Source: Candidatus Microgenomates bacterium (GTDB lineage: Bacteria; Patescibacteriota; Microgenomatia; Daviesbacterales; UBA10151). Taken from it: a stretch of DNA of 64,000 nt. This document shows positions 4,728-57,631 of the stretch, in pieces. The stretch lies in contig JACOYE010000009.1 of NCBI GenBank assembly GCA_016182045.1, forward strand, positions 1,328 to 65,327, written 5' to 3'. The notes beneath the pieces are model-generated. The model saw only the letters and a program-made list of their open reading frames with translations, did no database searches and was not told the origin of the DNA. A program made the translations under genes and the position numbers. Each line of letters begins with the position of its first letter. Position 1 is the stretch's first letter.

Positions 4728-5368
4728 TTCATGGTATCATGAAATCAATGGTCAAACAATCTCAATTTAATAGAATAGTTGAATTCGGAATCCCGATATT
4801 ACTGTTGTGGATGTTTTTTCAGTTTTATAACTTTGGAAAAGTTACCCCCTCAGAAATGATTAAAACCACCGGACTTTTGGCTATTAGTCTTTTAGGGATT
4901 ACCCTTCTGATCGGACCTCTTAGCAGAATACTACCCGGTCTGAATTTTCTGAAAGCCTTTCGGAAAACATGGGGCATCTTAAGTTTTGTAGCGGCTTTTA
5001 TGCATACTCTTTTAGTTTATACCTACTTTTTCAAATTTAATTTTTTGCGTTTTATAGATACGTCAAACCCAAAATATGGCGGGATTTTATCTGGGCTTTT
5101 AGCTTTAATAATCCTTCTTTTAGTCACCTTAACCTCCAACCAGAAAGCCATCGATAAACTGTCTCCCAGGATATGGAAGATTATTCAAACCACCAGCTAT
5201 TTAGCTTTAATTTTGGCTGTTTTGCACTTTTATCTGATGGAGCAGGCAGACGGAGCCTTGGTTATCAGAAGACTATTGGGGCAAATCACTTATGTGGCTG
5301 CTATTTTGGTAATCATACTGAGATTATTAATCCTGTTTTTGCCCTCTAAAAAAGAAGCTTCTCACTAG
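4715..5368 (+). CDS. ferric-reductase-like heme-binding membrane domain protein (MsrQ/YedZ-like)
   Basis: Six-TM protein with conserved His in TM helices (WGILSFVAAFMHTLLVY, LAVLHFYL), matching the YedZ/MsrQ architecture. The true start may be an internal Met. Confidence 0.55.
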   Translation: MFPPIHGIMKSMVKQSQFNRIVEFGIPILLLWMFFQFYNFGKVTPSEMIKTTGLLAISLLGITLLIGPLSRILPGLNFLKAFRKTWGILSFVAAFMHTLLVYTYFFKFNFLRFIDTSNPKYGGILSGLLALIILLLVTLTSNQKAIDKLSPRIWKIIQTTSYLALILAVLHFYLMEQADGALVIRRLLGQITYVAAILVIILRLLILFLPSKKEASH

Positions 5369-9197: not shown

Positions 9198-9230
9198 ATT
9201 GTAAATTGTAAATTGTAAATTGTAAATTGA
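9198..9230. repeat. tandem heptanucleotide repeat (TTGTAAA, about 4.5 copies)
   Basis: attgtaaattgtaaattgtaaattgtaaattga sits 7 nt upstream of the rpiB start codon on the minus strand. Read on the coding strand it gives repeated TACAAT, -10-like hexamers. Confidence 0.8.
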
Positions 9231-11543: not shown

Positions 11544-11548
11544 CTAAC

Positions 11549-11770
11549 TATTCTTTCGGGGTTTTGTGTAAGTCAAAATCGGTGGTAAAACTCCACGATC
11601 CCGCACCGTCTGGTGCAGGAACGAACTGGTGAAAATCCAGTAGCGACCGTACAGTCGGAATGAAAGAAAGACGTCGTCCCCGCGAAAGCGGGGAACCATA
11701 AAATAATTATATGGATCCCAGACTTGATCTGGAATGACTGATGAATTTAGCCCCGAAAGGGGCTTTTTTG
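11549..11770 (+). ncRNA. orphan small RNA (~220 nt), class unknown
   Basis: Its own promoter lies upstream. It is GC-rich with multiple hairpins (GCACC-GTCT-GGTGC, ACTGG-TGAAAAT-CCAGT, CCCCGC-GAAA-GCGGGG). It ends in a canonical intrinsic terminator (AGCCCCGAAAGGGGCT plus T6 at 11749-11770). No + strand gene follows, and the minus-strand ORF over it looks spurious. Confidence 0.5.
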
Positions 11771-14984: not shown

Positions 14985-16307
14985 TCAACTTGATGATTTC
15001 TCCAGATATGCTAAAGCTTCATTTGCTCTTTTTAAAGTCTCTTCTTCCCCCAATATTTTAACACTCTCAAAAAGCGGCGGGCTAACCAATTGGCCCGAGA
15101 TAGCCACTCTGATCAACTGGAAAGTTTGGGTCGCTGAAAGTCCATGGCTTTCACCAAATTGTCTGAATGTTTTTTCAAACATATCAGCCTTCCATGGTTT
15201 CTCCATCTTTTCCATCACCTCTAACATCTCTTTCAATAACTTCACTATGTCCAACCTTTTCTTAACCACTTTTTCAAATACCTCTTGTTCGTACTCCGGT
15301 TTTTCCCAGAGAAAATCTGTCAGCGGTATGAAATCCGATAACTTCTTAATCCTCTCTTTAACAAGCGGTATAACTTTATCTAGCTCCTCATCTGCTGGAT
15401 GTTCTAGTTTTCCTTGAGAGATATCCTTCAAATATTCTAAGATTTGAGTTTTGAGTTTTGAGTTTTGAGTTTTCCTAATATATTCTCCATTCATCCATTC
15501 CAGTTTCCGGACATCAAAAATGGCAGGGGCAGTATTTAAATCTTTCAAATCAAATTCTTCTATCATCTCCGACAGAGTTAAAATTTCTTTTCCAGAGGGA
15601 GGGGTCCATCCCAAAAGCACCAGGAAATTGATCAACGCCTCTGGTAAAAATCCATCTCTTTTATAATCTAAAACACCTATGCTTCCATGTCTTTTGGAAA
15701 GTTTACTTCTATCAGTTGCTAAAATATTGGGAGAGTGGGCAAACTGCGGAATATCCCATCCAAATGATTCATACAACATGATGTGTTTTGGTGTTGATGA
15801 AATCCAGTCTTCACCACGAGTCACATGAGAAATGTTCATCAGATGATCGTCAACCACGGAGGCCAAATGATAGGTGGGATATTCATCGGATTTTAAAATT
15901 ACAAAATCTTCCACCTGCCTATTCTCAAACTTAATGCTCTTATTACCCACTAAATCAATCCAGGAAGTTGAACCCTCTTTTTTTGTCTTAAAGAAAATTG
16001 CTTCTTCCTGTTGGTAAGCTTTATCAGAATTCAATAATTGAAGTGCATGTTCTTTATAAATATCCAATCGTTCTGACTGAAGGATTACTTTCTCGTCCCA
16101 ACTCAGACCAAGCCACTTTAAGCTATCATAAATGGCACTATAACTTTCCTCAACTTCCCTTTTTTTGTCGGTATCCTCAATTCTTAAAAGAAATTTACCC
16201 CTGTTGTGTTTTGCAAAAAGATAGGTAAAAAGTGCAGTTCTCATATTACCCACATGAGGATTACCGGTAGGTGATGGTGCATATCTTACTCTAACTTCCT
16301 CAGCCAT
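14985..16307 (-). CDS. gltX: glutamate--tRNA ligase
   Basis: Class I HIGH region (APSPTGNPHVGNMRTALF) and KMSKS-like motif (KLSKRHG). Confidence 0.85.
   Translation of the reverse strand: MAEEVRVRYAPSPTGNPHVGNMRTALFTYLFAKHNRGKFLLRIEDTDKKREVEESYSAIYDSLKWLGLSWDEKVILQSERLDIYKEHALQLLNSDKAYQQEEAIFFKTKKEGSTSWIDLVGNKSIKFENRQVEDFVILKSDEYPTYHLASVVDDHLMNISHVTRGEDWISSTPKHIMLYESFGWDIPQFAHSPNILATDRSKLSKRHGSIGVLDYKRDGFLPEALINFLVLLGWTPPSGKEILTLSEMIEEFDLKDLNTAPAIFDVRKLEWMNGEYIRKTQNSKLKTQILEYLKDISQGKLEHPADEELDKVIPLVKERIKKLSDFIPLTDFLWEKPEYEQEVFEKVVKKRLDIVKLLKEMLEVMEKMEKPWKADMFEKTFRQFGESHGLSATQTFQLIRVAISGQLVSPPLFESVKILGEEETLKRANEALAYLEKSSS
15445..15473. repeat. tandem heptamer (TGAGTTT x4) inside the gltX coding sequence
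   Basis: tgagttttgagttttgagttttgagtttt. It is read through as KLKTQ... on the coding strand. Confidence 0.7.
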
Positions 16308-18265: not shown

Positions 18266-18355
18266 GCAATAATTTAAAAATTAAAGTGTAAAATGAAAAA
18301 TGACAGATTAAAATGTAAAATGTTCGATTAAATTTTTAATTTTACATTGTCATTT

Positions 18356-19729
18356 TTATTTTTTATTTTTAATATTTACATTTAGTCTTATATCAACTCT
18401 CTCCATATCTCTTGGGAAAAGGGCGGCCTCTCTGATATTTGCAAGACCTAAGATTTGCATGATCATTCTCTCCAGTCCAAAAGAAAATCCTCCCTCAGGC
18501 GGCATACCGTATTTGAAGGCCATTAAATACATCTCAAAATCTTTTGGATCCATGCCGTGAGACTTTATTGACTCGACCAATTGTTGATAGTCATTTATTC
18601 TTTGACTTCCAGACAGTATTTCAATCCCTTTAAATAGTAAATCATAACTTAGGCTGTATTCTGAATTTTTTGGATCCGGCATGGTGTAAAAAGGCTTGGC
18701 AGCAGTTGGGAAATGAGTGACAGTTATAAAATCAGAATTGTGTTTCTTTTTTGCCCATTTGCATAGATCCTGCTCATCTTGGGGTGTTAAATCTTTTTCT
18801 TTCTTATTGTCTCTACCATATTCTTTAAGAATAACTTCCTGAGCTTCTCTTAAAGTTAATCGGGGAATTTTATTATAGACAATCTCCTCTGCACCATATT
18901 CTTTAAGATATAGCTTGGATGAATTTTGAACATGCTCCACCATGCTTATGGCAATACTTTCATAAATATCCATTAATTCATCAAAGGAGGTAAATCCAAA
19001 TTCACAATCCATTTGAGTAACTTCCGCAAGATGCCTGGTAGTGACTGAAGGTTCTGCCCTATATGCTTTGGTAATTGTAAAAACCCTCTCAAAAACAGGA
19101 ACTAACATCTGCTTATAAAGCTGGGGGCTTTGGGTCAAAAATGCTTTATGTTCAAAATATTCTATCCTAAATACCTCCGCACCACCTTCTGTGGATGAGG
19201 CAGCAATGGTTGGAACAACAACTTCAGTACAACCTAATTTTTGACAAACTTGTCTAAATGAAGAAAGCAAAGCTTCTTGGACTTTAAAAATGGCCTTGAT
19301 TTTTGGGTGTCTTAAGCTGAGAGTACGCCAGTCTAAAAGAGTTGGCAGTTCCAAATTAAGAGTTGGACCTCCCATGTCAAATGGCAACTCCGAAGCTTTT
19401 GATAAAATCTCTATACTTTCTGCTGAAATTTCAATTTCTCCAGTGGGAATATTTTTATTGACCAGATTGGTAGGCCTTTTGTTTACCTTACCTATAATGC
19501 AAACCACATCTTGCGGGCTTATCTCACCTCCGAGGTGAGCTGAAGATGTAACCTTGCTCACACCTCGGAGGTGTGTGTCTTGGGATACAACTACTTGTAT
19601 TAACCCAGTTCTATCCAAAACATCCAAAAATAAAATCTTCCCGTGATCGCGCCTGGTCTGAATCCAACCGTAAATGGTCACTATTTCGCCAACTTTATCA
19701 TTACAATCTAAAATTAAAGTTCTTTCCAT
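18356..19729 (-). CDS. aspS: aspartate--tRNA ligase, archaeal/eukaryal-type (class IIb; could be AsnRS)
   Basis: N-terminal OB anticodon-binding fold; class II motifs; C-terminal GGFSFGLERMIM...FPRD. At ~457 aa it fits archaeal-type AspRS. Confidence 0.65.
   Translation of the reverse strand: MERTLILDCNDKVGEIVTIYGWIQTRRDHGKILFLDVLDRTGLIQVVVSQDTHLRGVSKVTSSAHLGGEISPQDVVCIIGKVNKRPTNLVNKNIPTGEIEISAESIEILSKASELPFDMGGPTLNLELPTLLDWRTLSLRHPKIKAIFKVQEALLSSFRQVCQKLGCTEVVVPTIAASSTEGGAEVFRIEYFEHKAFLTQSPQLYKQMLVPVFERVFTITKAYRAEPSVTTRHLAEVTQMDCEFGFTSFDELMDIYESIAISMVEHVQNSSKLYLKEYGAEEIVYNKIPRLTLREAQEVILKEYGRDNKKEKDLTPQDEQDLCKWAKKKHNSDFITVTHFPTAAKPFYTMPDPKNSEYSLSYDLLFKGIEILSGSQRINDYQQLVESIKSHGMDPKDFEMYLMAFKYGMPPEGGFSFGLERMIMQILGLANIREAALFPRDMERVDIRLNVNIKNKK
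19524..19574. repeat. pair of CACCTCCGAGGTG-type palindromic motifs inside the AspRS coding sequence
   Basis: ctcacctccgaggtgag ... ctcacacctcggaggtgtg. Locally GC-rich, it encodes SAHLGGEISPQD within the N-terminal domain. Confidence 0.6.
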
Positions 19730-22726: not shown

Positions 22727-22735
22727 ATTATTCCA

Positions 22736-22794
22736 CCTCCGAGGTGTAATTGCTCGCCTCGCTGCGAAGCGGGCATTTCTTCACCTCGGAGGTG
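22736..22794. repeat. composite palindromic element in the recJ-cca intergenic region
   Basis: CACCTCCGAGGTG at 22736-22748, then GCTCGCCTCGCTGCGAAGCGGGC at 22752-22774, then CACCTCGGAGGTG at 22782-22794. Confidence 0.7.
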
Positions 22795-22844: not shown

Positions 22845-24254
22845 ATGGATTATAAATTACCTAATGAGGTAAAAATTATTTTAAATAAATTTCAAAAAGC
22901 TAATTTCCAAATTTATATTGTGGGAGGGGCTGTCCGTGACCTTTTAATGGGCAAGGTTGTAAGAGATTGGGATTTTACCACAGATGCTAAACCTGAGGAA
23001 ATTTTGAAAATAATCCCTGGGGGTTTTTATGACAATAAATTTGGTACGGTAGGTTTGGCAGTTGAGGATGGAGTATTTGAGATTACAACGATGAGGAAGG
23101 AGGGCGTCTACAAAGATTTCCGTCATCCTGACTCGGTTTCCTGGACCAATAAAATTGAGGAGGATTTAGGCAGACGAGATTTTACTGTCAATGCTATGGC
23201 ATTAGTTCCTAAAAGCGTCATTGCGAGCGAAGCGAAGCAATCTTCCACGGAAGATCGCCACGTCGCTAGCGCTCCTCGCGATGATAAATGGATGTTAGCA
23301 GATCCATTTCATGGACAACAGGACATCAAGGATAAACTGACTAGAGCAGTTGGAGATCCTAATACCCGTTTCCAAGAAGATGCTCTACGTCTAATAAGAG
23401 CTATCAGATTTGCCACAGAATTAGATTTTGACATAGATCCTAAAACTTTTGAGGCAATCCAAAAAAATGCTCCTCTTTTAAATGAGATTGCCAATGAAAG
23501 AGTTCGTGATGAGCTGTTTAAAATACTTGCCTCAGATAATGCTTATGAAGGAATCATCAAGTTAAGAGAGGCAAAATTACTACAAATTATTTTGCCGGAG
23601 CTGGAAAAATGCTTTGGTATTGTGCAGCAAGGACCAAAGCATGATAGAACTTATGATATTGGTGAACACTCTTTACTCACCCTTAAATACACCCCCTCTG
23701 GTGATTCATTAGTAAGATTGGCTTCTCTACTTCATGATATTGGTAAAACAGATACGGTAAAAGCTTCTCCCGATGGCAATGTCACTTTTTATCAGCATGA
23801 TGTGGTTGGCGGTGAGATTGTCAAAAAAATTGCCAAAAGATTTAATCTGTCTAAAAAACAAGCTGAAAAATTATCTCGATTAGTCAGATGGCACATGTTT
23901 ACAGTTTCAGAACACCAAACCGATTCTGCCATCAGAAGATTCATTAAAAATGTAGGTCTAGACAATATTAATGACATGATGGCACTACGAATCGGTGATA
24001 GATTAGGTGGTGGTACACAAACAGAAACCTCTTGGAGGATGGAAAAATTTCAACAAAGAATTAAACAGGTCCTCAAAAAACCATTTTCCATAACTGATCT
24101 TAAGGTTAATGGCAATGATGTGATGGAAGTACTTAACATAAAACCGGGCCCCAAAGTCGGCGAAATACTGCAGAAACTTTTTGAAGAAATCTTAGAAGAT
24201 TCTAATAAAAATAATCGTGATTATCTTTTAAATAGAATAAAGAATATAGAATAA
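22845..24254 (+). CDS. cca: CCA-adding enzyme (tRNA nucleotidyltransferase with HD domain)
   Basis: Pol-beta NTase head (IYIVGGAVRDLLMGK...DWDFTT) and an HD domain (LLHDIGK). Confidence 0.8.
   Translation: MDYKLPNEVKIILNKFQKANFQIYIVGGAVRDLLMGKVVRDWDFTTDAKPEEILKIIPGGFYDNKFGTVGLAVEDGVFEITTMRKEGVYKDFRHPDSVSWTNKIEEDLGRRDFTVNAMALVPKSVIASEAKQSSTEDRHVASAPRDDKWMLADPFHGQQDIKDKLTRAVGDPNTRFQEDALRLIRAIRFATELDFDIDPKTFEAIQKNAPLLNEIANERVRDELFKILASDNAYEGIIKLREAKLLQIILPELEKCFGIVQQGPKHDRTYDIGEHSLLTLKYTPSGDSLVRLASLLHDIGKTDTVKASPDGNVTFYQHDVVGGEIVKKIAKRFNLSKKQAEKLSRLVRWHMFTVSEHQTDSAIRRFIKNVGLDNINDMMALRIGDRLGGGTQTETSWRMEKFQQRIKQVLKKPFSITDLKVNGNDVMEVLNIKPGPKVGEILQKLFEEILEDSNKNNRDYLLNRIKNIE
23216..23286. repeat. 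GC-rich imperfect palindromic element inserted in-frame in cca
   Basis: cgtcattgcgagcgaagcgaagcaatctt...cgctagcgctcctcgcgatga. Its first 29 nt exactly equal the reverse complement of 24327-24355. It encodes SVIASEAKQSSTEDRHVASAPRDDK. Confidence 0.7.
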
Positions 24255-24261
24255 AGAGTTG

Positions 24262-31615: not shown

Positions 31616-32017
31616 TTAAAGTAATTTAACAAATTTAAATTTGGTTTGTTTGATAAACTGTTCATCTGCTGTTATCAGTATTGTCCCATTAGCTTTGGCC
31701 ACAACTGCATATAACATATCATAAACAGAAGTTTTATATTTTTTAGCCAGTCTTGCTGCTTCTTTTACATCATCCTCTGTAGGGTGGTATATTTCAATTT
31801 GTGTTTTATAAATTATGGTTATAGACCTTGTAACTGCTCGTTGAGGAATAGTTGCTTTCGTAGCCAAAGTATTTGCCACTTCATATAAAAGAAGGTCTAA
31901 AGAGATGATTCGCTCAAGTCCATCTGAATGATTTTGAAATATTTCTTTTACCTTTATATGACCTTCTTCGTAGGGTAAAACTAGCTTATTAGCTACTGAT
32001 GCATCAATTACAATCAT
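31616..32017 (-). CDS. vapC: PIN-domain toxin VapC
   Basis: MIVIDASVA... with PIN-domain acidic residues. Overlaps the upstream antitoxin by 4 nt. Confidence 0.7.
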   Translation of the reverse strand: MIVIDASVANKLVLPYEEGHIKVKEIFQNHSDGLERIISLDLLLYEVANTLATKATIPQRAVTRSITIIYKTQIEIYHPTEDDVKEAARLAKKYKTSVYDMLYAVVAKANGTILITADEQFIKQTKFKFVKLL

Positions 32018-34548: not shown

Positions 34549-34909
34549 GTGCCTAGGAAGAGAGTAAGCCAGATTCTGTTTTCTCGCTTCGCGAAGCGAG
34601 TAGATGATCATTTATCTAATGCTCCTCATTTCGACTAGTTGGCGAGCAGCCTAAGTCGGTTCTAGGATTGCAGCGGGGAGGATTGCCCTTCGACTCGTCC
34701 CGATTACATCGGGACTCGCTCAGGGCTATAGCCCTTTGCTTATCGAATACCCTGTGGCTTGATCGTTTCACTCGGCGCCACCCGAATCGTCACTGTTGCT
34801 CTATACTCGCGGTCACCCGGTCTCGCCTTGCGGCGGACACCCTACTCTTTGCTGTCTGGACTTTCCTGTCCCGATTTAATCGGGACCGATCATCCTTCTT
34901 CCTAGGCTT
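34549..34909 (-). ncRNA. rnpB: RNase P RNA (bacterial type A-like)
   Basis: On the minus strand: P1 AGCCTAGGAAGA paired with TCTTCCTAGGC; P2 GATGATC with GATCATC; P3 hairpin GGTCCCGATTAAATCGGGAC; universally conserved ACAGGAAAGTCCAGAC (P4 5' strand); CAACAGTGA (J11/12-like); P4 3' strand CTAGAACCGACTTAG. A TATAAT -10 sits just upstream. The overlapping + strand ORF 34668-34967 is spurious. Confidence 0.8.
34583..34600. repeat. perfect GC palindrome CTCGCTTCGCGAAGCGAG embedded in rnpB
   Basis: It lies between the P2 3' strand and the P1 3' strand of the RNase P RNA and belongs to the same repeat family as the coding-region insertions. Confidence 0.6.
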
Positions 34910-36005: not shown

Positions 36006-36900
36006 TTTTTTCTTTTTTAAACCAGGTTAATTGCCTTCTGATATAGCCGTGAATTTTGTTTTGCATGATTTCAATTAAACCCTGATCTCCCTCGATCACC
36101 CTTATTTTCCCATCTAAATAATCAGCCAATACTCCATATTCCAATCCCAACTGCCTCATTCTTTTTAAACTGAGTCCCCCTTTATACAATCTTTTTGCTT
36201 CCTCAACCATTCCCTGGTTTAGCCTTTTAACTACACGTTCATCTGATCCTTGATAAAGAATCCTCCTTGATGCGGTCAGTCCAATCTTTAAAGTATTAAG
36301 ACCACCTCGGATGGTGGCCCGTAGGGACTCCTCCGAGATGAATTCAGCTGATGCAAGCTCTATAGCCCTAACCAGTCTTCTTGGATTTTGTCTATCAGAA
36401 TCATTCATTTTCTTCCATCTTTGGGGGGAAAGTTTTTGTAATCTTGCCTGCAATTGAGACAGAGGTAACTTCTCCAGCTCTTTTCTTAACTTTAAATTTG
36501 GTGGAATTGCCAAAGCAGGTAATCCTTCAAGCAGGGCCTTCAGGTATAACCCCGTCCCACCAACTACAATAGGTAGCTTGCCTCTTTCCCTTATTTCCCC
36601 AATTACCCTATTTGCATCCTTGACATAATCAAAAACTGTATATTGCTTTTTAGGACTAATCACATCATGCATCCACACCCTAATCCCCCCAATCTCCCAA
36701 AACCCCTGTCCCTTCTTCCAGTTTCCATCTTCCAGTTTCCATCTTCCGCTGGGTAGTTTACCCGTCCCTATATCAAGTCCCACATAAACTTGTCTAGAAT
36801 CACAAGAAACCAATTCCCCATCAAATTTTTTGGCCAAAATTAATGCCAAATCAGTTTTGCCTGTGGATGTTGGACCCAAGATAACTAAAAGTTTTTTCAT
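35875..36900 (-). CDS. miaA: tRNA dimethylallyltransferase
   Basis: P-loop ILGPTSTGKT plus DSRQVY. Contains an in-frame 15-nt tandem duplication at 36728-36757. Confidence 0.8.
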   Translation of the reverse strand: MKKLLVILGPTSTGKTDLALILAKKFDGELVSCDSRQVYVGLDIGTGKLPSGRWKLEDGNWKKGQGFWEIGGIRVWMHDVISPKKQYTVFDYVKDANRVIGEIRERGKLPIVVGGTGLYLKALLEGLPALAIPPNLKLRKELEKLPLSQLQARLQKLSPQRWKKMNDSDRQNPRRLVRAIELASAEFISEESLRATIRGGLNTLKIGLTASRRILYQGSDERVVKRLNQGMVEEAKRLYKGGLSLKRMRQLGLEYGVLADYLDGKIRVIEGDQGLIEIMQNKIHGYIRRQLTWFKKEKNVYWFDILDKQSFPFSDEKRKNFPDNVAKMVAGWYHQADDTKN

Positions 36901-36948: not shown

Positions 36949-38286
36949 ATGAAGATTGCCATATTGGGTGCTGGTTTTACCGGACTTTCTGCTGCCTTTA
37001 GACTTTTACAAAAAGGTTATCAGGTGACTATTTTTGAGAAGGAAGAAAGTTCAGGCGGATTGGCCGTGGGGTTTAAATTAGCCAACTGGCAGTGGAGTTT
37101 AGAAAAAGGTTATCATCACTGGTTTACCAATGATGATTCCATTTTGCATTTGGCCAAAGAGATAAATCACCAGGTAATCATTGAACGTCCTAGTACAGAT
37201 GTTTTTACTCATGGTAAGCGTTTACCTTTTGATAGTGCGACCACCCTGATAAATTTTAGATACCTACCAATTATTGACAGAGTCCGGGTAGCTTTAATCT
37301 TGGCATTTTTAAAAATACTACCAAGCCATCATTTACTTGATGGTAAAAAAGCTTTACCTTGGATCAGAAAATTTATGGGGGAAAAATCCACCAAACTTAT
37401 CTGGAACCCCCTTTTTACTTCTAAATTTGGCAAGTTTAGTGAACAGATTGCTCTCACCTGGTTTTGGGCCAGAATTAAAAAAAGAACCCCTTCTTTGGCT
37501 TATCCCCAAGAAGGATTTCAAGCTTTTGCCGATCATCTAGGTAAAGAGATTAAAAAAATGGGTGGGGAAATCTTGCTAAATACTCAAGTTGTCGAATTGG
37601 TAAGTAGAAATAACGATGTTGTTGTTAAAACTACCAACTACCCGCTTCGCGACTTTCGTCGACGCAGGCGCGAGGCGAGCCAACTACCAACTACCAACTA
37701 CTATTTCGACAAAGTAATAGTTACTTTACCCTCTCCTATCTTTACAAAAATTGCCCATGGACTGCCCAAGCAATACACGGATAGAATAACCTCAATTCCT
37801 CATCTGCATGCTCAGGTATTAATCCTGATTTTAAACAAACCTTTTATGGATAAAACCTATTGGTTAAATATTACAGAAAAGGATTTCCCTTTCTTGATCT
37901 TGGCAGAACATACCAACTTTATGGATTCCAAATACTATGGCGGACAACATATCTTATATATAGGCAATTATCTGCCGCCTGATCATCCGTATCTTAAGAT
38001 GACTGTGAAAGAATTATTAAAAGTTTTTGACCCTTTTCTTAAAAAGATAAATCCAAACTACCAACTACATACTACAAACTACCAACTATTCATTGGTCCT
38101 TTTGCCCAGCCCATTGTCACAGTTGACTACCCAAACTTGATTCCATCATTTACAACTCCACTAAAAGGAGTTTATCTTGCCAACTTAGACATGGTCTATC
38201 CTTGGGATAGGGGAACAAATTATGCTGTTGAGCTGGGAGAGAAAATTGCTGATATGATAGATAAAGATCATGCCAAAGTTAAATAA
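36949..38286 (+). CDS. FAD-dependent oxidoreductase (amine-oxidase / phytoene-desaturase-like Rossmann fold)
   Basis: Dinucleotide-binding motif IAILGAGFTGLSAA...IFEKE. First gene of the GT-C cluster. Confidence 0.65.
   Translation: MKIAILGAGFTGLSAAFRLLQKGYQVTIFEKEESSGGLAVGFKLANWQWSLEKGYHHWFTNDDSILHLAKEINHQVIIERPSTDVFTHGKRLPFDSATTLINFRYLPIIDRVRVALILAFLKILPSHHLLDGKKALPWIRKFMGEKSTKLIWNPLFTSKFGKFSEQIALTWFWARIKKRTPSLAYPQEGFQAFADHLGKEIKKMGGEILLNTQVVELVSRNNDVVVKTTNYPLRDFRRRRREASQLPTTNYYFDKVIVTLPSPIFTKIAHGLPKQYTDRITSIPHLHAQVLILILNKPFMDKTYWLNITEKDFPFLILAEHTNFMDSKYYGGQHILYIGNYLPPDHPYLKMTVKELLKVFDPFLKKINPNYQLHTTNYQLFIGPFAQPIVTVDYPNLIPSFTTPLKGVYLANLDMVYPWDRGTNYAVELGEKIADMIDKDHAKVK
37641..37681. repeat. 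GC-rich palindromic element inserted in-frame in the FAD-oxidoreductase gene
   Basis: cccgcttcgcgactttcgtcgacgcaggcgcgaggcgagcc is ~75% GC in an AT-rich gene and encodes PLRDFRRRRREAS. It shares end motifs CCCGCTTCGC...GCGAGGCGAGCC with 54102-54130 and 22752-22774. Confidence 0.7.
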
Positions 38287-39874: not shown

Positions 39875-41519
39875 TCAGTATTTTTATTTAGTGATCATCC
39901 TAATTATTGCAGCAACTTTGAGATTCTATGGCCTTAACTGGGATCAAAACCAACATCTTCACCCAGATGAGAGGATGATAACGATGGTGAGTTTGAATAT
40001 CCGTTTACCTCAAGATAAATATGAATGGCAGAATATTATGACGCCACAAAGTGTTCTTAATCCAAAATTTTTTGCTTATGGCAATTTTCCTATTTATCTT
40101 TTAAAAATTAGCGGATCTTTATTGGGACAAATTGATCACAAATTATCCACTTACGATGGGATAAACTTATTGGGAAGAATCTGGTCTGTGATTTTTGATA
40201 TTGGTATTATAATCATACTTTTCCTTTTAGGTAAAAAATTATTCAGTGAAATAATAGGAATATTTTCAGCCTTTTTCTATACTATCTCGGTTTTAGCAAT
40301 TCAACTGGCTCATTTTTATGCTGTTGATACACCCTTAACTTTTTTCATATTATTGACACTTTATCAAAGTATCAGATTTTATGAGAGGCCAACCAAACTA
40401 AGAGCAGTTTTTGTGGGGTTTTTATTTGGTCTCTCCCTGTCCATCAAAACAAGTGCATTACTTTTGGTCTCATCAATTGGCATTGCCTTAGCTGTCCCTC
40501 ACATTTGGTTCCCTCATTTGCCATTATTTATGAAAAAACTTCTTATGAATGGACTGATTATTATTGCCATCAGCATAATAACTTTTGTAATATTTGAACC
40601 TTTCGCTTTGATCGACTTTTCTAGCTTTTGGAGTCAAACTCAAGAACAACGAAGAATGACCTATGATCCATTTACCTTTCCCTATACCTTACAATATGTG
40701 GGAAAAATCCCCTATATTTATGAAATAAAAAATATCTTTCTTTGGGGAGAGGGCCCAATTCTTGCCACACTATCATTTATCAGCATTTTCTATTTCACAT
40801 ATCTAGCACTTAAAAAATACAGGCAACCAGTTTGGGCAAAGGAATTAATCCTTGTGATATTTTTTTGGGTGTATTTTTTTGTGGTGGGAAATTTTTCCAT
40901 CGGTTTTATGCGCTATATGCTTCCTATTTATCCTATATTTTGTCTGGCAGCAGCAGTTTTATTTTATGCTGTTTTCAAAAGATTACCCATTATTCTTTAT
41001 TCTTTATTCATAATTCTATCACTGATCTGGCCTTTATCATTTATTAATATTTATTCACAACCAAACACCAGAGTCTTAGCAACAGATTGGATCAATAAAA
41101 ATATTCCATTGGGTTCAACTATAGCTACCGAGCATTGGGATGATGGTTTGCCTCTTGGTACTCAAGACAATTACAAAGTTTTAGAATTACCAATGTATGA
41201 ACCGGATGCGCCCGCTAAATGGGATAAGATTAATCAAATATTACAAGAAACAGAATATATAATTATTGCATCAAACAGACTTTATACCCCATTACAAAAA
41301 CTTACCAACTGCTCAAAACTTCCTCCTGGCCGTTGTTATACTCAAACAGCCCAGTATTATAAAAAATTATTTGACGGTTCTTTGGGTTTTAAAAAAATTG
41401 CCGAATTTTCAATTTACCCAAAAATTCCATTTCTAAATATTGAAATTGAAGATCAAAATGCCGATGAATCATTCACTGTCTATGATCATCCAAAAGTTTT
41501 GATTTTTAAAAAATCATAA
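39852..41519 (+). CDS. GT-C-fold membrane glycosyltransferase (GT39/GT83-like), paralog 2
   Basis: Paralogous first-loop motif LRFYGLNWDQNQHLHPDERM. Confidence 0.65.
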   Translation: MKKLLSNNQYFYLVIILIIAATLRFYGLNWDQNQHLHPDERMITMVSLNIRLPQDKYEWQNIMTPQSVLNPKFFAYGNFPIYLLKISGSLLGQIDHKLSTYDGINLLGRIWSVIFDIGIIIILFLLGKKLFSEIIGIFSAFFYTISVLAIQLAHFYAVDTPLTFFILLTLYQSIRFYERPTKLRAVFVGFLFGLSLSIKTSALLLVSSIGIALAVPHIWFPHLPLFMKKLLMNGLIIIAISIITFVIFEPFALIDFSSFWSQTQEQRRMTYDPFTFPYTLQYVGKIPYIYEIKNIFLWGEGPILATLSFISIFYFTYLALKKYRQPVWAKELILVIFFWVYFFVVGNFSIGFMRYMLPIYPIFCLAAAVLFYAVFKRLPIILYSLFIILSLIWPLSFINIYSQPNTRVLATDWINKNIPLGSTIATEHWDDGLPLGTQDNYKVLELPMYEPDAPAKWDKINQILQETEYIIIASNRLYTPLQKLTNCSKLPPGRCYTQTAQYYKKLFDGSLGFKKIAEFSIYPKIPFLNIEIEDQNADESFTVYDHPKVLIFKKS

Positions 41520-53423: not shown

Positions 53424-54077
53424 TTACTTCTTTTTATTCAGATTTTCAACCACTTCTTTAACCACCTCATATTCAAAACCTCTTCTCATCAAAAACTCAT
53501 ATGCTTTTTTGCGAAATTCCATGGAGTCCAGATTTTTCCATTTACTGGCCTTCCGCTCCAAAGCACTTTCTGCCAACTCAGTTTGATTACCATCTCCTTT
53601 CAATGCCTCTATGATTATGTTCCGATCGACACCTTTTTGTAGAAGCTCTGCGGTGATTGCTCGATTACCTTTATATTTTGATATCCGCTTTGATCTAACC
53701 CATTCTTTAGCAAATTTCTCATCATCCACCATTCCTTTCTGTCGCAGTTTCTGAATTAATAGTTCCACAACAACTTCTGAAATCTCCTCTTTATCTTTAA
53801 CTTTTCTTTTAAAAGATAGACTTCTTAAATAGTTTCTGACTTCTTTTTCAGAACGGGGTCTAATATTCCATAACCTGTACATTCGTTCCATCAGCTTCCC
53901 AACTTCCGCCTCAAACAACAGCTTTTCCACATCTGATTCCTCAAGTAACTTCCCAGGGACTAAACGGTATTCCACTACCAAATCCTCATCTGCCCCAAAA
54001 GCAAAAGCACCATCTAGATAAATATTAAAACGTCGTGGATTTTTCTTTTGAGACTCTACTGAAGTAATTTTGGACAT
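53424..54077 (-). CDS. recX: regulatory protein RecX
   Basis: Three-repeat helical RecX architecture, downstream of recA. Confidence 0.65.
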   Translation of the reverse strand: MSKITSVESQKKNPRRFNIYLDGAFAFGADEDLVVEYRLVPGKLLEESDVEKLLFEAEVGKLMERMYRLWNIRPRSEKEVRNYLRSLSFKRKVKDKEEISEVVVELLIQKLRQKGMVDDEKFAKEWVRSKRISKYKGNRAITAELLQKGVDRNIIIEALKGDGNQTELAESALERKASKWKNLDSMEFRKKAYEFLMRRGFEYEVVKEVVENLNKKK

Positions 54078-55186
54078 TAAGCAGCAACTTCTTCAATTAT
54101 ACCCGCTTCGCCCGCGAAGCGAGGCGAGCCAGTTTCTTCCTCTTTTCCAACAACCATTTCTTTCCCTTCCTTTTGTTTACCCCAGGCTTCCCTTATTTCT
54201 TTTTCCAAATTTAGGGCCTCTTTCTTATTGGCTTTTAAGTAATCTATTGCAGCTTGTCTGCCCTGACCCAACATGATTTCATTCCATTTTATAAAGGCTC
54301 CTGACTTTTGTAGAATTCCAAGCTCCAATCCCACATCCAAAAGTTCTCCTTCGTGAGAAATTCCATTTTCATCCATATCAAATTCGGCAATTCTAAATGG
54401 GGGAGCCACTTTATTTTTGACAACCTTAACTCTGTGTCTTGAACCAACCACTGTGTCTCCCACTTTGATATTTTCAATTTTTCTAATATCTAGTCTAACT
54501 GATGTATAGAATTTTAAAGCTAATCCACCTGGAGTAGTCTCCGGGTTCCCAAACATCACTCCAATTTTTTGTCTTAACTGGTTAGTAAAAATAATAATCG
54601 TATTTGTATTTGATACTGCTCCGGTTAATTTTCTTAAAGCCTGAGACATCAGTCTTGCCTGCATACCCATCACAGCATCTCCCATCTCCCCTTCAAGCTC
54701 TGCCCTAGGCACCAAAGCTGCAACTGAGTCTATTACCAATACATCAATTCCGCCAGATCTGATCAAAGCCTCTGCAATTTCTAAAGCCTGCTCGCCAGTA
54801 TCTGGTTGGGAAATTAAAAGATCATCTAAATTAACACCTATCTTTTGTGCTCTTTGGGGATCCAAAGCATGCTCTGCATCAATAAATGCTGCCACTCCAC
54901 CTCTTTTTTGTGCCTCAGCTATAACATGAAGACAGACTGTGGTTTTTCCGCCTGCCTCTGGGCCAAAAACTTCAATAATCCTGCCTCTTGGCAAACCTCC
55001 AACTCCTAAAGCAAGATCTAAAGCGATAGAACCTGTGGGGATAACTTGGGTAGTCAGTTTCTCTGCTCTTTCACCCAACCGCATAATAGAACCAGTACCA
55101 TATTGCTTTTGGATCTGTTGCATGGCCGCGGCAATTGCAGCTTTACGGGCCTCATCATTGGGTTGTGCCATAATCCTATTATACAA
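54077..55186 (-). CDS. recA: recombinase RecA
   Basis: Walker [10 protein letters not shown] and the L1/L2 loop regions. The C-terminal tail contains a GC-rich element insertion. Confidence 0.9.
54102..54130. repeat. GC-rich palindromic element in-frame in the recA C-terminal tail
   Basis: cccgcttcgcccgcgaagcgaggcgagcc encodes SPRFAGEAG within the RecA tail. Confidence 0.7.
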
Positions 55187-55381: not shown

Positions 55382-56158
55382 ATGAAACTAATCTCATTAA
55401 ATACCTGGGGTGGAAAAGTTTACAAACCACTTATAAAATTTATCCAAGATTACTCAAAAGATACGGATATCTTTTGTTTTCAGGAAGTTTTCTACACTAA
55501 CTCCAATATTAAAGAGGATTTTGGTTTTAGAACCAATTTACTTAATGAAATAAAGAAAATTCTAAAAGATCATATCTGCTTTTTTGCCCCCACCATAGAC
55601 AATTATCTGGTGGGAAGCTTTAAAAAAGAGTTTACAAATTATCATCTATCTTCGGGGTTAGCAATCTTTATTAATAAAAATCTTCAGGTAAAATCAGCTG
55701 GAGATTTTTTTGTTTTTAGACAAAAAAATGATTATGAGTTAGGAAATTACAATACCATGCCCAGAAATATTCAATTTATCAATTTTACTAAAAGCAATAA
55801 AAAATTCACTATTTGTAATGTGCATGGAATTTGGGTAGATAAAGATAAGGGCGATACTCCTTCCAGAATAAAACAATCAGAAATGATACAGAAATTTTTA
55901 GATAACGAGGCGGGAGAGAAAATAGTGTTAGGAGATTTTAATTTAACATTAAATACTGAAAGTATAAGGATTTTAGAAGAAAATTTAAGGAATTTAATCA
56001 AGGAATATAAAATTTTATCTACCAGAAGTAAGTTCTTCCCCGGAGATGAAAGGTATGCTGATTTTACTCTAGTCTCATCAGGGATCAAAGTGATCTATTT
56101 TCAAGTTCCTAATATTGAAGTATCTGATCATCTTCCAATGATACTGGAATTTTTATGA
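55382..56158 (+). CDS. endonuclease/exonuclease/phosphatase (EEP) family protein, paralog 1
   Basis: CFQEV, GDFN and SDH motifs of the EEP fold. Confidence 0.7.
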   Translation: MKLISLNTWGGKVYKPLIKFIQDYSKDTDIFCFQEVFYTNSNIKEDFGFRTNLLNEIKKILKDHICFFAPTIDNYLVGSFKKEFTNYHLSSGLAIFINKNLQVKSAGDFFVFRQKNDYELGNYNTMPRNIQFINFTKSNKKFTICNVHGIWVDKDKGDTPSRIKQSEMIQKFLDNEAGEKIVLGDFNLTLNTESIRILEENLRNLIKEYKILSTRSKFFPGDERYADFTLVSSGIKVIYFQVPNIEVSDHLPMILEFL

Positions 56159-56219: not shown

Positions 56220-56849
56220 ATGAAACAGTCCTTGCGAATAATCGATATTTCTTTACCCATCGGCGAGAAAATGGTAATTTTCCCCAACAACCCTCCTGTT
56301 AAATTCAAACCTCTGAGAACACCTACTACCTACATTTCTGAGATCACATTTGGATCTCACACAGGAACTCATATCGATGTTCCCAGGCATATTTCTAAAA
56401 AGGGAATCGGTGTAGACAAAATTAATTTAGATCAACTTATTGGACCCTGTAGGGTTTTAGACATGACCCATTGTAAAGTATCTATCACTACTGATGATTT
56501 TAGAAAAGAAGATATCCAAAAGCAAGAACGAATTTTAGTTAAAACTAATAATTCTCTAAAGGGTTTTAAAAAGTTTTATCCAGATTATATTTATCTTGAT
56601 GGAGATGCGGCAGAATTTTTGGCTTCTAAAAAAATTGTCCTTTTTGGCATTGATTCTTTATCAGTCAAAAAGCAAGGTTCACCTGATACAAGACCACATA
56701 CAGAGCTTTTAAAAAACAATATTGTCATTATAGAAGGCCTAGATTTATCAGAAGTTACTCCGGGCCAATATGATATTTTCTGTCTACCTTTAAAACTAGT
56801 CGGATTTGATGGGGCTCCTGCTAGAACAATTCTTATAAATTCAACATGA
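56220..56849 (+). CDS. cyclase-family protein (kynurenine-formamidase-like)
   Basis: HTGTHIDVPRH metal-binding motif. Confidence 0.7.
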   Translation: MKQSLRIIDISLPIGEKMVIFPNNPPVKFKPLRTPTTYISEITFGSHTGTHIDVPRHISKKGIGVDKINLDQLIGPCRVLDMTHCKVSITTDDFRKEDIQKQERILVKTNNSLKGFKKFYPDYIYLDGDAAEFLASKKIVLFGIDSLSVKKQGSPDTRPHTELLKNNIVIIEGLDLSEVTPGQYDIFCLPLKLVGFDGAPARTILINST

Positions 56850-57631
56850 AGCTTATTTCTTTAAACACCTATGGTGGTAAATATTTTAAACCACTGATCA
56901 ATTTCATTAGACAGTTTGAAAGTGATATTGACATATTTTGTTTTCAAGAAGTTTTCAGTACAACTTCCAACTTCAAACAATTTCCAGAATATAGAGCCAA
57001 TTTACTGGAAGAAATATCGAAAATCTTACCAGAGTTTAATTACTTTTTTAATCCAGTAATGGAAGAATTGGATACCTATGCAAACCCGGTAGATTTCGAT
57101 TTAAAGCATGGCCTGGCAATATTTGTAAAAAAGGATATTTTATTAAAAAATTATCAAACCTTCTTTCTTTATAAAGATAGTGTTGTCAAAATAATTAAAA
57201 AAGATTTTTCAGATATCCCTGTTAATATCCAATTGCTAAGTTTTATAAAAAAAGATACAGAATTTATAGTTTGTAATTTTCATGGTACCGCTTATCCCGG
57301 ATCTAAGTTGGATACTTCTCAAAGAATTGAACAATCACAAAAGATTATGGATCTTCTTAAAGAAAAGGTTGGTGCAAAAATAGTTGTGGGAGATTTTAAC
57401 TTGATGCCCAATACACAAAGTGTCAATATCCTAGAAAAGGATTTGATAAATTTAATCAAGGAATACAATATAGACAAAACCAGATCTAGATTGTCTCCAT
57501 TTTATGGAAAATCTGATTTTCAAAAATTTGCAGATTATACATTTGTCACAAATGATGTTAATGTTGAAAAATTTGAAGTTCCTGAAGTGGAAATCTCTGA
57601 CCACCTACCAATGATTCTTGAATTTTCCTGA
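56846..57631 (+). CDS. EEP family protein, paralog 2
   Basis: Paralogous to 55382-56158, with the same motif set. Overlaps the cyclase stop by 4 nt. Confidence 0.7.
   Translation: MKLISLNTYGGKYFKPLINFIRQFESDIDIFCFQEVFSTTSNFKQFPEYRANLLEEISKILPEFNYFFNPVMEELDTYANPVDFDLKHGLAIFVKKDILLKNYQTFFLYKDSVVKIIKKDFSDIPVNIQLLSFIKKDTEFIVCNFHGTAYPGSKLDTSQRIEQSQKIMDLLKEKVGAKIVVGDFNLMPNTQSVNILEKDLINLIKEYNIDKTRSRLSPFYGKSDFQKFADYTFVTNDVNVEKFEVPEVEISDHLPMILEFS

What the first reader, a model, noticed from the sequence alone, without database searches (positions are those of the whole stretch)
54102..54130. Palindromic element inserted in-frame in the RecA C-terminal tail
The last ~20 codons of recA include cccgcttcgcccgcgaagcgaggcgagcc (translated ...[10 protein letters not shown]...). 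It shares both termini (CCCGCTTCGC ... GCGAGGCGAGCC) with the element in the FAD-oxidoreductase gene and with the recJ-cca intergenic copy. The RecA C-terminal tail is a variable, regulatory, acidic region, so this is a plausible tolerated insertion point. It is direct evidence that the element spreads into essential genes.
Basis: seen in the sequence. Interest (0 to 1): 0.65.

Follow-up and report, generated by a model that had tools for sequence, protein, structure and literature searches.

The report
Tiny palindromic insert in recA tail
A 27-base GC-rich palindromic mini-element has inserted in frame into the floppy C-terminal tail of RecA in this Daviesbacteria (CPR) genome, and the identical 27-mer sits in frame in many other housekeeping genes in bacteria labelled as unrelated phyla, so it is one copy of a widespread and apparently undescribed family of very small mobile repeats.

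Summary
The string lies at 54102-54130 and is translated as [10 protein letters not shown] near the end of recA (54077-55171, minus strand).

Comparison with a sister genome sets the unit at 27 nt (54102-54128): CCCGCTTCGC + 7 nt + GCGAGGCGAG. None of the 119 closest RecA homologues has it. The sister genome (RecA 93% identical) has an empty site in recA. It also has an unambiguous empty site for the 39-nt copy in the FAD-oxidoreductase gene, with no target duplication.

The same 27-mer occurs verbatim in more than 115 metagenome contigs and in genomes labelled Pirellulales, Omnitrophota, Gammaproteobacteria and Patescibacteria. About half of the copies lie inside long open frames, including GatB, IF-2, MurG, a NifS-like enzyme and an M24 peptidase. 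Family members measure 21, 27 or 30 nt, so 87% are multiples of 3. The 27-mer has no stop codon in any frame. Copies insert at purine|pyrimidine steps in either orientation, often between units of heptamer arrays or at hairpin tips.

Best reading: a non-autonomous hairpin mini-element, tolerated because it adds nine residues beyond the folded RecA domains. The mobilising machinery is unknown. The closest analogues are Rickettsia RPEs, intragenic REPs and cyanobacterial SDRs, but the element is not a tested member of any of them.

The parts
54102..54128 (+). The 27-nt element proper: CCCGCTTCGC-CCGCGAA-GCGAGGCGAG. The orientation is defined by the CCCGC end. It is read on the minus strand as (G)SPRFAGEA(G).
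   Evidence: Exact match. Boundaries follow the 10+N+10 rule fixed by the FAD empty site. The sister recA has ACT GGT at the junction. The identical 27-mer is present in more than 115 metagenome contigs.
54077..55171 (-). recA, the host gene. Its stop codon overlaps the recX start (TAATG).
   Evidence: ORF list. P0001 is 100% identical. Pfam RecA covers residues 12-266 and RecA_C covers 275-330 of 364. Homology to PDB structures ends at about residue 329-340.
54101..54129 (+). Insertion junction: A54101 | element | C54129, a purine|pyrimidine step (TATA|CCAG).
   Evidence: Across 115 copies of the 27-mer, the base before the element is G or A in 93 and the base after it is C or T in 101. These flanking bases already exist in the empty sites.
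53424..54077 (-). recX, the downstream gene, translationally coupled to recA. The element ends 22 nt before the recA stop.
   Evidence: ORF list. Pfam RecX_HTH1-3. The sister genome has the same overlapping arrangement.
37641..37679 (+). 39-nt family member (10+19+10) in frame in the FAD-dependent oxidoreductase. It adds PLRDFRRRRREAS.
   Evidence: Sequence. The sister genome L124 has an exact empty site, ACTA|CAAACTA. The insert is absent from the aligned homologues inspected (rows for 44 of the 119 printed).
37627..37701 (+). Heptamer array (ACTACCA/CCAACTA)n into which the 39-nt copy is inserted. The array exists without the core in the sister genome.
   Evidence: TRF reports 37680-37701 with period 7. 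Pattern search. Alignment.
22753..22773 (-). 21-nt family member (10+1+10) in the recJ/cca spacer. It sits at the tip of a larger hairpin.
   Evidence: Sequence. The 21-nt class recurs in many genomes.
22734..22794 (.). Composite hairpin: 13-bp arms CACCTCCGAGGTG (22734-22746) and CACCTCGGAGGTG (22782-22794) enclose the 21-mer.
   Evidence: RNA fold of -44 to -47 kcal/mol, z about -5.8 to -6.0. The spacer is 118 nt here, against 27 nt in L259 and 57 nt in the P0242 locus.

Best explanation
The recA segment is a copy of a very small, non-autonomous, hairpin-forming mobile DNA element. It has two conserved 10-nt imperfect inverted arms (CCCGCTTCGC ... GCGAGGCGAG) and a short variable centre.

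Shown:
- It was inserted precisely, without target duplication, at a purine|pyrimidine step inside a Gly codon of the RecA C-terminal tail.
- It is 27 nt long and has no stop codon in any of the six frames.

Inferred:
- It is simply translated as nine extra residues in a region beyond the folded domains.
- It persists as a neutral or nearly neutral passenger.
- Mobilisation is in trans, by an enzyme encoded elsewhere. The most likely type recognises hairpins in single-stranded DNA and leaves no duplication (HUH/Y1, as in IS200/IS605 TnpA or RAYT). Structured DNA such as heptamer arrays and hairpin tips would be favoured targets.

I put the 'mobile mini-element, translated passenger' reading at about 0.8. 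I put the specific HUH-type mechanism at only about 0.3.
For: Presence/absence:
- Only 1 of the 120 closest RecA proteins has the insert, and its tree neighbours lack it.
- The sister genome (sample SRR6505742) has an empty site in recA (L003). A contig from the same sample has one in the FAD gene (L124).
- The recJ/cca spacer is 60-90 nt shorter in relatives.

Precision: the FAD pair shows an insert of exactly 39 nt (10+19+10) between ACTA and CMAACTA, with no duplication.

Not a local invention:
- The identical 27-mer is present in at least 115 metagenome contigs with GC from 0.29 to 0.57.
- It is also in genome bins labelled Pirellulales, Omnitrophota, Gammaproteobacteria and Falkowbacteria. 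A sibling 27-mer is shared by Daviesbacteria and Nitrospira.

Coding tolerance:
- 100 of 203 non-redundant copies in low-GC contigs lie in open frames of at least 200 codons.
- Pfam confirms the hosts GatB (twice), DegT, M24 peptidase, PurT-like, PCMT, class-V aminotransferase, MurG, IF-2 and an epimerase.
- Length is a multiple of 3 in 82 of 94 copies: 42 of 42 inside ORFs and 40 of 52 outside. Chance hits in high-GC genomes give only 2 of 18.

Translation and selection: frame use is non-uniform (chi-square p = 1.3e-4). The charge-neutral SPRFAGEA frame is commonest and the Arg-rich frames are rarest.

DNA-level rather than RNA-level behaviour: orientation relative to the host ORF is 52:48.

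Independent hits in permissive loops:
- Two GatB genes carry the 27-mer 3 codons apart in opposite orientation.
- RecA tails of P0015, P0018 and P0046 carry other inserts of about 10 aa at the same point.

Target context:
- The flanks are R|Y.
- Junction flanks show period-7 self-similarity in 10% of copies against 0.6% of controls.
- Perfect 7-nt inverted arms lie within 5 nt of the junction in 8.3% against 0.4%.

Permissive site: the insert lies beyond RecA_C and beyond homology to solved structures.
Against: - No mobilising enzyme was identified. About 65 ORFs of the window gave no transposase, integrase or HUH Pfam hit. The gene between two copies in L043 is not a transposase by my reading.
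- The element lacks the GTAG/CGTC tag of REPs.
- No transposition event was observed directly. The closest empty recA allele is from a genome only 93% identical at the protein level, so timing is unknown, and the recA boundaries are ambiguous by about one codon.
- The search patterns fixed the arms, so variation in the arms, and therefore the true family breadth and decay, was not measured.
- Taxon labels come from metagenome bins.
- Translation of the nine residues is inferred, not shown.
Confidence: 0.8

Rival explanations
1. Same insertion, different means of spread. Copies move by homologous or microhomology-mediated gene conversion from other copies, for instance between heptamer arrays of the same unit, and not by a dedicated transposase.
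For: The FAD copy sits in an (ACTACMA)n array that already existed in the sister genome. The same array plus core occurs in a Daviesbacteria CopA gene (L027) and in L231. No transposase was found in the window.
Against: The recA copy, and roughly 80% of all copies, have no repeat or homology at their flanks. Identical units in genomes labelled as different phyla need a means of entry that does not depend on homology.
Confidence: 0.15
2. The insert is kept because it does something. One version: a strong mRNA hairpin 22 nt before the recA stop and recX start tunes recA/recX expression or mRNA stability. Another version: the nine residues retune the autoregulatory RecA tail.
For: The sense-strand RNA folds at -19.3 kcal/mol over 53 nt. 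recA and recX overlap as TAATG. In E. coli the RecA C-terminal tail is autoinhibitory (established knowledge, from memory). Three further Daviesbacteria RecA proteins have inserts of about 10 aa at the same point.
Against: The fold z-score is only -1.9, and 12 of 200 shuffles do as well. The insert is absent from 119 of 120 relatives. The same 27-mer sits in either orientation in dozens of unrelated genes and in intergenic DNA. The other RecA-tail inserts have unrelated sequence.
Confidence: 0.08
3. The segment is ancestral and was deleted in relatives, or it arose locally by slippage or quasi-palindrome templating.
For: The tail is variable in length, and 'AG' or 'GEAG' before (I/V)IEE recurs in some relatives.
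Against: 119 of 120 homologues lack it, including all near neighbours. It is 81% G+C by count of the string, in a 37% GC genome. It is identical over 27 nt to copies in unrelated genomes.
Confidence: 0.03
4. Assembly or sequencing artefact, such as a chimeric join at a short repeat or an adaptor-like sequence.
For: The window is from a metagenome-assembled genome and no reads are available.
Against: Both flanks are recA, in frame, and colinear with the sister gene. The unit is only 27 nt long, so a chimeric join at a repeat would not restore recA sequence in frame on both sides (inference). The same unit is present in assemblies from many projects and pipelines, with different flanks.
Confidence: 0.02
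5. The element is not translated. It is removed from the mRNA or bypassed by the ribosome, as with mitochondrial byp elements.
For: GC-rich hairpins inserted in genes of AT-rich genomes are bypassed in Magnusiomyces mitochondria (from memory).
Against: All 42 ORF-embedded copies from the genome-contig scan are multiples of 3. The 27-mer has no stops. Frame use is biased against Arg-rich readings, as expected if the element is translated.
Confidence: 0.02

Closest known systems
Rickettsia palindromic elements (RPEs)
   Same: Palindromic repeats that insert in frame into unrelated housekeeping genes and are read through as extra peptide. Nearly half of RPE copies lie in ORFs (review PMC10969869). 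About half of the copies of this family do too.
   Different: RPEs are about 100-150 bp, are confined to Rickettsia, and carry a CGTC end tag (PMC3733652). This unit is 21-39 nt, has no such tag, and occurs in genomes labelled as many phyla.
REP / REPIN elements with RAYT transposases
   Same: Imperfect GC-rich palindromes of 20-40 nt with a conserved mismatch in the stem. Some REPs lie inside genes, many of them replication and repair genes (PMC3733652). Both are thought to be mobilised in trans.
   Different: REPs are defined by a GTAG or CGTC tag, are mostly extragenic and are species-specific. Here there is no tag, half the copies are in ORFs, units are identical across phylum labels, and no RAYT was seen in 64 kb.
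Cyanobacterial small dispersed repeats (SDR; Elhai et al. 2008, Genome Res 18:1484)
   Same: Described from memory, because the paper was not retrievable: 21-27 nt hairpin repeats that are mobile, nest inside other repeats and inside heptamer tandem arrays, and have no known enzyme. This element shows the same size range, nesting and link to heptamer arrays.
   Different: SDRs were reported only in Nostocaceae (PMC5861425). Sequence relatedness could not be tested. This family is GC-rich, measures 21/27/30 nt, and is common inside protein-coding genes.
Mitochondrial GC clusters and byp elements of yeasts
   Same: GC-rich hairpins that invade genes of AT-rich genomes (from memory).
   Different: Those are organellar. 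Byps are skipped by the ribosome. Here the length is a multiple of 3, there are no stops, and frame bias points to translation.
MITEs derived from DDE transposons (for example Correia, ERIC)
   Same: Short non-autonomous repeats with inverted ends that can fuse in frame with ORFs (PMC10969869).
   Different: MITEs are longer than 100 bp as a rule and make target-site duplications. No duplication is seen here, and the upstream CC is part of the element.

Membership tests
Rickettsia palindromic elements | Palindromic repeat of about 100-150 bp | tested here: not met
   The unit is 27 nt in recA. Other copies are 21 and 39 nt.
Rickettsia palindromic elements | In-frame insertion in protein-coding genes, read through as peptide | tested here: met
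   The recA ORF is intact across the insert. 100 of 203 copies lie in long open frames. Translation itself is inferred.
Rickettsia palindromic elements | CGTC tetranucleotide at one end (PMC3733652); restricted to Rickettsia | tested here: not met
   The ends are CCCGC and GCGAG. The host is Daviesbacteria.
REP/REPIN-RAYT | Imperfect palindrome of 20-40 nt | tested here: met
   The arms CGCTTCGC and GCGAGGCG pair with one G-T. Predicted DNA hairpins are -4.8 to -11.5 kcal/mol.
REP/REPIN-RAYT | GTAG or CGTC tag at one end | tested here: not met
   Neither tag is at either end of any of the three window copies.
REP/REPIN-RAYT | A RAYT (Y1 HUH) gene in the genome, typically flanked by REPs | tested here: inconclusive
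   No Y1_Tnp or other transposase hit in about 65 ORFs of the 64-kb window. The rest of the genome was not available.
REP/REPIN-RAYT | Predominantly extragenic, species-specific families | tested here: not met
   About 50% of copies are in ORFs. Identical units occur in bins labelled as several phyla.
Cyanobacterial SDR | Dispersed hairpin repeat of 21-27 nt | tested here: met
   The main classes are 21, 27 and 30 nt.
Cyanobacterial SDR | Nested insertion into heptamer tandem arrays and into other repeats | tested here: met
   FAD empty site inside an (ACTACMA)n array. Period-7 flanks in 10% of copies against 0.6% of controls, and inverted-arm flanks in 8.3% against 0.4%.
Cyanobacterial SDR | Sequence identity to SDR1-8; Nostocaceae hosts | not testable with these tools
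   The Elhai 2008 paper (PMC2527708) is not held.
DDE-type MITE | Target-site duplication flanking terminal inverted repeats | tested here: not met
   There is no duplication at the FAD site. The CC preceding the core is invariant in 113-114 of 115 copies, so it belongs to the element and is not a duplication.

The most novel reading that the evidence does not exclude
The recA insert is one copy of an undescribed family of frame-neutral hairpin mini-elements found in genomes labelled as many phyla. The units measure 21, 27 or 30 nt. The 27-mer and the 21-mer have no stop codon in any frame (the 30-mer is open in five of six). The arms are identical in Patescibacteria, Omnitrophota, Nitrospira, Planctomycetes and others.

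These elements colonise loops and tails of core proteins (RecA, IF-2, GatB, MurG), nest in heptamer arrays and hairpin tips, and move between distant lineages by machinery not yet identified. That would amount to an SDR-like system far outside the cyanobacteria.
Probability: 0.45. Interest if true: 0.8.

Novelty: new variant of a known kind. Interest (0 to 1): 0.6.

Why it matters
- It shows that protein-coding genes of reduced CPR genomes, including recombination and translation genes, are being lengthened by selfish DNA only 21-39 nt long.
- It gives a concrete, searchable signature (CCCGCTTCGC-N-GCGAGGCGAG, length a multiple of 3). That signature can flag such inserts in annotation and in alignments, and it could explain some of the lineage-specific loops in CPR proteins.
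- It raises a testable question: how do identical 27-mers come to lie in distant phyla, and which enzyme moves them?
- It offers natural insertion scans of permissive sites in RecA, GatB, IF-2 and other proteins.

Tried and rejected
- **Rfam.** A gathering-level scan of the window and permissive scans of both hairpins found no RNA family. The only hits were generic hairpin matches to miRNA models, far below threshold.
- **Literature.** Searches for the DNA strings, the encoded peptides and descriptive terms found no description. The Elhai 2008 SDR paper could not be retrieved.
- **Transposase in the window.** Pfam on about 65 ORFs found none.
- **A RAYT-like gene between two inverted copies in Nitrospira locus L043.** The 522-aa ORF there reads like an outer-membrane efflux protein. 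This is my reading; no Pfam run was made.
- **2-nt CC target duplication.** Rejected, because CC precedes the core in 113-114 of 115 copies whatever follows it.
- **Shared ancestry of the window's insert with the inserts of about 10 aa in P0015 and P0018.** Rejected. They sit in another clade, and their DNA differs apart from the last 12 nt. Their left half matches a different dispersed module, TTCGGCAAGCTCAG.
- **The 18-nt palindrome in the RNase P RNA gene as a family member.** It lies in a variable region of the model and cannot be called an insertion.
- **Phage vector.** Only 13 hits in 2.9 million viral contigs, so there is no sign that phages are the main carriers.
- **Strand bias as a clue to mechanism.** None was seen; orientation relative to host ORFs is 52:48.

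Full report
**1. The observation**

It is unique in the window, and no shuffle produced a match. It lies in recA (ORF 54077..55186 on the minus strand). The database protein P0001, 100% identical, starts at the ATG at 55171 and has 364 aa. The tail reads ...[25 protein letters not shown].

The window has 36.8% G+C, and this segment is one of nine short islands with at least 80% G+C. Both termini recur far more often than chance:
- CCCGCTTCGC with up to 1 mismatch: 7 matches against 0.53 expected.
- GCGAGGCGAGCC with up to 1 mismatch: 3 matches against 0.02 expected.

The two termini are paired at three places:
- recA;
- 37641-37681, in the FAD-dependent oxidoreductase ORF;
- 22751-22773 on the minus strand, in the recJ/cca spacer.

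Two other left-terminus hits are not members. One is inside the RNase P RNA gene and one is upstream of metK.

**2. Is it an insertion?**

The organism is a Daviesbacteria/Microgenomates (CPR) bacterium, judging by the source names of the best RecA hits. Among the 120 best RecA homologues (84-93% identity), only the window's own protein has SPRFAGEAG. Most are 351-358 aa against 364 aa here.

On an NJ tree of the conserved core, the window's RecA groups with P0003, P0008, P0009, P0011, P0020 and P0028. None of these has an insert.

The closest relative is P0003 (93% identical; contig from sample SRR6505742, locus L003). It reads ...GAA GAA ACT GGT TCA TTA GAA GAA..., where the window reads ...GAA GAA ACT GG[C TCG CCT CGC TTC GCG GGC GAA GCG GG]T ATA ATT GAA GAA....

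A contig from the same sample (L124) carries the orthologous FAD gene with an unambiguous empty site. It has AAAACTACAAACTA|CAAACTACAAACTAC, against AAAACTACCAACTA|CCCGCTTCGC-19 nt-GCGAGGCGAG|CCAACTACCAACTAC in the window. That insert is exactly 39 nt and has no target duplication. This fixes the unit as 10 + N + 10.

Applied to recA, the rule gives 27 nt (54102-54128), or nine codons inserted inside a Gly codon. The inferred ancestral tail is [11 protein letters not shown], as in P0060 (EETGIIEEAV).

The third copy, of 21 nt, sits at the tip of a 61-nt composite hairpin. The spacer that holds it is 118 nt here, against 27 nt and 57 nt in two relatives. So for all three window copies, the relatives examined lack the element.

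**3. It is not a private element**

After setting aside high-GC genomes, whose hits have irregular spacers and look like chance, the hits fall into discrete classes:
- 21 nt, with centre A or C;
- 27 nt, with centre CCGCGAA (exactly the recA copy) or CGACTCA;
- 30 nt, with centre C-RRAGCTYY-A.

The bins carrying them are labelled as follows:
- Patescibacteria of several classes;
- Omnitrophota;
- Nitrospira, including contigs of 241-503 kb;
- Pirellulales;
- Gammaproteobacteria;
- Bacteroidota;
- Elusimicrobiota;
- WOR-3.

It gave 115 usable copies in contigs with GC from 0.29 to 0.57.

In these copies, the two bases before the core are CC in 113-114 of 115. CC is therefore part of the element and not a target duplication. 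The base before the element is a purine in 93 of 115, and the base after it is a pyrimidine in 101 of 115. Both empty sites show that these flanking bases pre-exist. The element therefore goes in at R|Y steps. The site is TA|CC in recA, in the FAD gene, in a Daviesbacteria CopA gene (L027) and in one GatB gene.

Only 13 viral contigs carry the pattern.

**4. Relation to coding sequence**

- Of 203 non-redundant copies in low-GC contigs, 100 lie in open frames of at least 200 codons. Orientation relative to the frame is 52:48.
- Pfam confirms that ten such frames carrying the identical 27-mer are real genes. They are GatB (two genomes), a DegT-family aminotransferase (insert inside the GD|EVI motif), an M24 peptidase, a PurT-like ATP-grasp enzyme, PCMT, a class-V aminotransferase, MurG, IF-2 and an epimerase.
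- The two GatB inserts are three codons apart in the same loop and in opposite orientation, so they are independent.
- In the scan that left the centre free, length is a multiple of 3 in 82 of 94 low-GC copies. That is 42 of 42 inside long frames and 40 of 52 outside them. The high-GC chance hits give 2 of 18, which serves as an internal control.
- By direct reading, the 27-mer has no stop codon in any of its six frames.
- Frame use among 62 ORF-embedded copies is uneven (chi-square p = 1.3e-4). The charge-neutral reading SPRFAGEA, the one used in RecA, is commonest (21). The two Arg-rich readings are rarest (3 and 5).

Together these results say three things. The family's standard sizes preserve reading frame. 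Copies inside genes are read through. What we see has been filtered by selection on the peptide.

**5. Target context**

The FAD copy lies between units of an (ACTACMA)n heptamer array that exists without the core in the sister genome. Many other copies lie between units of unrelated heptamer arrays, such as TTGAAAA, TCTAATT and TAACTTT. Others lie at the centre of longer palindromes such as CCTGCCTGCCGG...AGGCAGG.

Quantitatively:
- Junction flanks show period-7 self-similarity in 10% of 180 copies, against 0.6% of control positions. No other period stands out.
- Perfect 7-nt inverted arms lie within 5 nt of the junction in 8.3% of copies, against 0.4% of controls.

Most copies, including the recA one, sit in ordinary sequence. 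The window itself is rich in period-7 arrays: at least eight, some inside genes.

**6. Why RecA tolerates it**

Pfam RecA covers residues 12-266 and RecA_C covers 275-330 of 364. Alignment to solved RecA structures stops at about residue 329-340. The insert occupies residues 349-357. The tail is the most variable part of the protein among the 120 homologues.

Three other Daviesbacteria RecA proteins (P0015, P0018, P0046) have inserts of 10-11 aa at the same point. P0015 and P0018 belong to a different clade. Their DNA is unrelated over the first two thirds, and its left half matches another dispersed GC-rich module, TTCGGCAAGCTCAG. The tail has therefore been hit more than once, which is best explained by survivorship at a permissive site.

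That the E. coli tail is an acidic autoregulatory flap is established knowledge, which I cite from memory. Whether the nine residues (one Arg, one Glu, net charge 0) change regulation here is untested.

**7. Mechanism**

Shown: precise insertion; no target duplication; R|Y junctions; either orientation; conserved imperfect arms with a variable centre; preference for structured DNA; identical units in genomes labelled as distant phyla.

Inferred: a trans-acting enzyme moves the element.
- DDE transposases are unlikely, because there is no duplication.
- A hairpin-recognising single-strand transposase of the HUH/Y1 type fits the anatomy best. No such gene was found in the 64 kb, and the element lacks the REP tags. 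I put this specific mechanism at about 0.3.
- Spread by gene conversion between arrays is possible for array-embedded copies, but not for recA.
- A regulatory role for the mRNA hairpin (-19.3 kcal/mol, z = -1.9) just upstream of the overlapping recA stop and recX start cannot be excluded. It is not needed, and it is not supported by the element's distribution.

**8. Comparison with known systems, and novelty**

In behaviour this element resembles three known systems:
- Rickettsia palindromic elements, which insert in frame into housekeeping genes (PMC10969869);
- intragenic REPs, many of which lie in replication and repair genes (PMC3733652);
- cyanobacterial SDRs, which are 21-27 nt and nest in heptamer arrays (Elhai 2008, from memory; reported as restricted to Nostocaceae in PMC5861425).

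It fails the size and tag criteria for RPE and REP. It lacks the target duplication of MITEs. It could not be compared in sequence with the SDRs.

Full-text searches for the DNA strings, the encoded peptides and descriptive terms found nothing.

I rate it as a new variant of a known kind. The recA case alone is an ordinary example of a tolerated in-frame repeat insertion. The family behind it has several features a specialist would probably find surprising: units of 21, 27 and 30 nt that preserve reading frame, identical units under many phylum labels, and frequent residence in core genes.

**9. Caveats**

- The arms were fixed by the search patterns, so divergence in the arms and the true family size are unknown.
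- Taxon labels are those of metagenome bins.
- Open frames were taken stop-to-stop, so some N-terminal copies may lie upstream of the true start.
- The nearest empty recA allele belongs to a different species-level lineage.
- No reads were available to test heterogeneity.

Noticed in passing
window 23217-23285 (cca gene 22845..24254, +): A second, different GC-rich palindromic insert of about 69 nt (gtcattgcgagcgaagcgaagcaatc...cgctcctcgcgatgat) is read in frame as VIASEAKQSSTEDRHVASAPRDD. It lies in the loop between RRDFTVNAMAL and DPFHGQ of the CCA-adding enzyme. In 121 aligned sequences (the window's protein plus 120 homologues), 67 have the modal short loop (26 residues between the anchors) and 14 are shorter. 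About 40 carry longer, diverse inserts (VIPAKAGIQ, SKHLRGE...HLGGE and others), so the loop looks like a hotspot.
   Followed up: partly
window 22734-22794 (recJ/cca spacer): The 21-nt copy sits at the tip of a hairpin with perfect 13-bp arms, CACCTCCGAGGTG and CACCTCGGAGGTG (-44 to -47 kcal/mol, z about -6). The arm next to recJ supplies GGAGGTG 6 nt before the recJ ATG, and the other arm is its anti-SD-like complement. The hairpin could therefore mask the recJ ribosome-binding site. The whole structure is missing from relatives, whose spacers are 27 and 57 nt.
   Followed up: partly
window 9198-9229, 15443-15473, 18277-18383, 24234-24257, 36714-36747, 37680-37701, 38054-38088, 40990-41017: There are unusually many period-7 tandem arrays; period 7 is the commonest period in the TRF output. 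Some are inside genes. (CAAACTA)5 lies near the 3' end of the FAD gene. (TTTGAGT)4.4 lies in the GluRS gene, by position between the catalytic and anticodon-binding domains. This recalls the STRR heptamer repeats of heterocystous cyanobacteria.
   Followed up: partly
window 34583-34600 (inside RNase P RNA gene 34549-34905, -): A perfect 18-nt palindrome, CTCGCTTCGCGAAGCGAG, closely resembles the element's arms. It occupies a variable region of the RNase P model just 5' of the P4 3' strand. It may be a native helix or a related insertion.
   Followed up: partly
L001 4042-4075 and L002 3196-3230 (recA 3' ends of P0015 and P0018); P0046: Other Daviesbacteria RecA proteins carry unrelated inserts of 10-11 aa (SASSVLGEAG, SASSLLGEGAG, SSRSADGAGAG) at the same point of the tail. 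Part of their DNA matches another dispersed GC-rich module, TTCGGCAAGCTCAG, seen in L123, L155, L172 and L258.
   Followed up: partly
FAD-oxidoreductase homologues P0123, P0127, P0136: The same surface loop, and a neighbouring one, of this enzyme carries other lineage-specific inserts (YQPPLRGPATNY, SSARYAARRVVRLQ, TTKQSDLRDSPRRMTV). This suggests repeated colonisation.
   Followed up: no
L003 about 4870-4925 (recX-rny spacer of the sister genome): The sister genome lacks the recA and FAD inserts but has a different GC-rich palindromic element (gtcattgcgaggagcgaagcgacgtagcaatc) in the recX-rny spacer, where the window has none. Presence/absence therefore runs in both directions.
   Followed up: no
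L145/L246 and L254 (GatB genes): The identical 27-mer is inserted in the same beta-hairpin loop of GatB in two distant genomes, three codons apart and in opposite orientation (PASPAKRGE against [10 protein letters not shown]).
   Followed up: yes
window 55382-56158 and 56846-57631: Two Exo_endo_phos (EEP) family genes lie just upstream of recA. An EEP gene is also next to recA in relatives (L003 and the P0046 locus). It is probably a conserved repair neighbour, and no link to the element was found.
   Followed up: no
window 11548-11675; 1410-2060; 31616-32017: An FMN riboswitch (Rfam, 86.7 bits); a Gp49-like/HTH pair that looks like a toxin-antitoxin module; and a PIN-domain gene.
   Followed up: no
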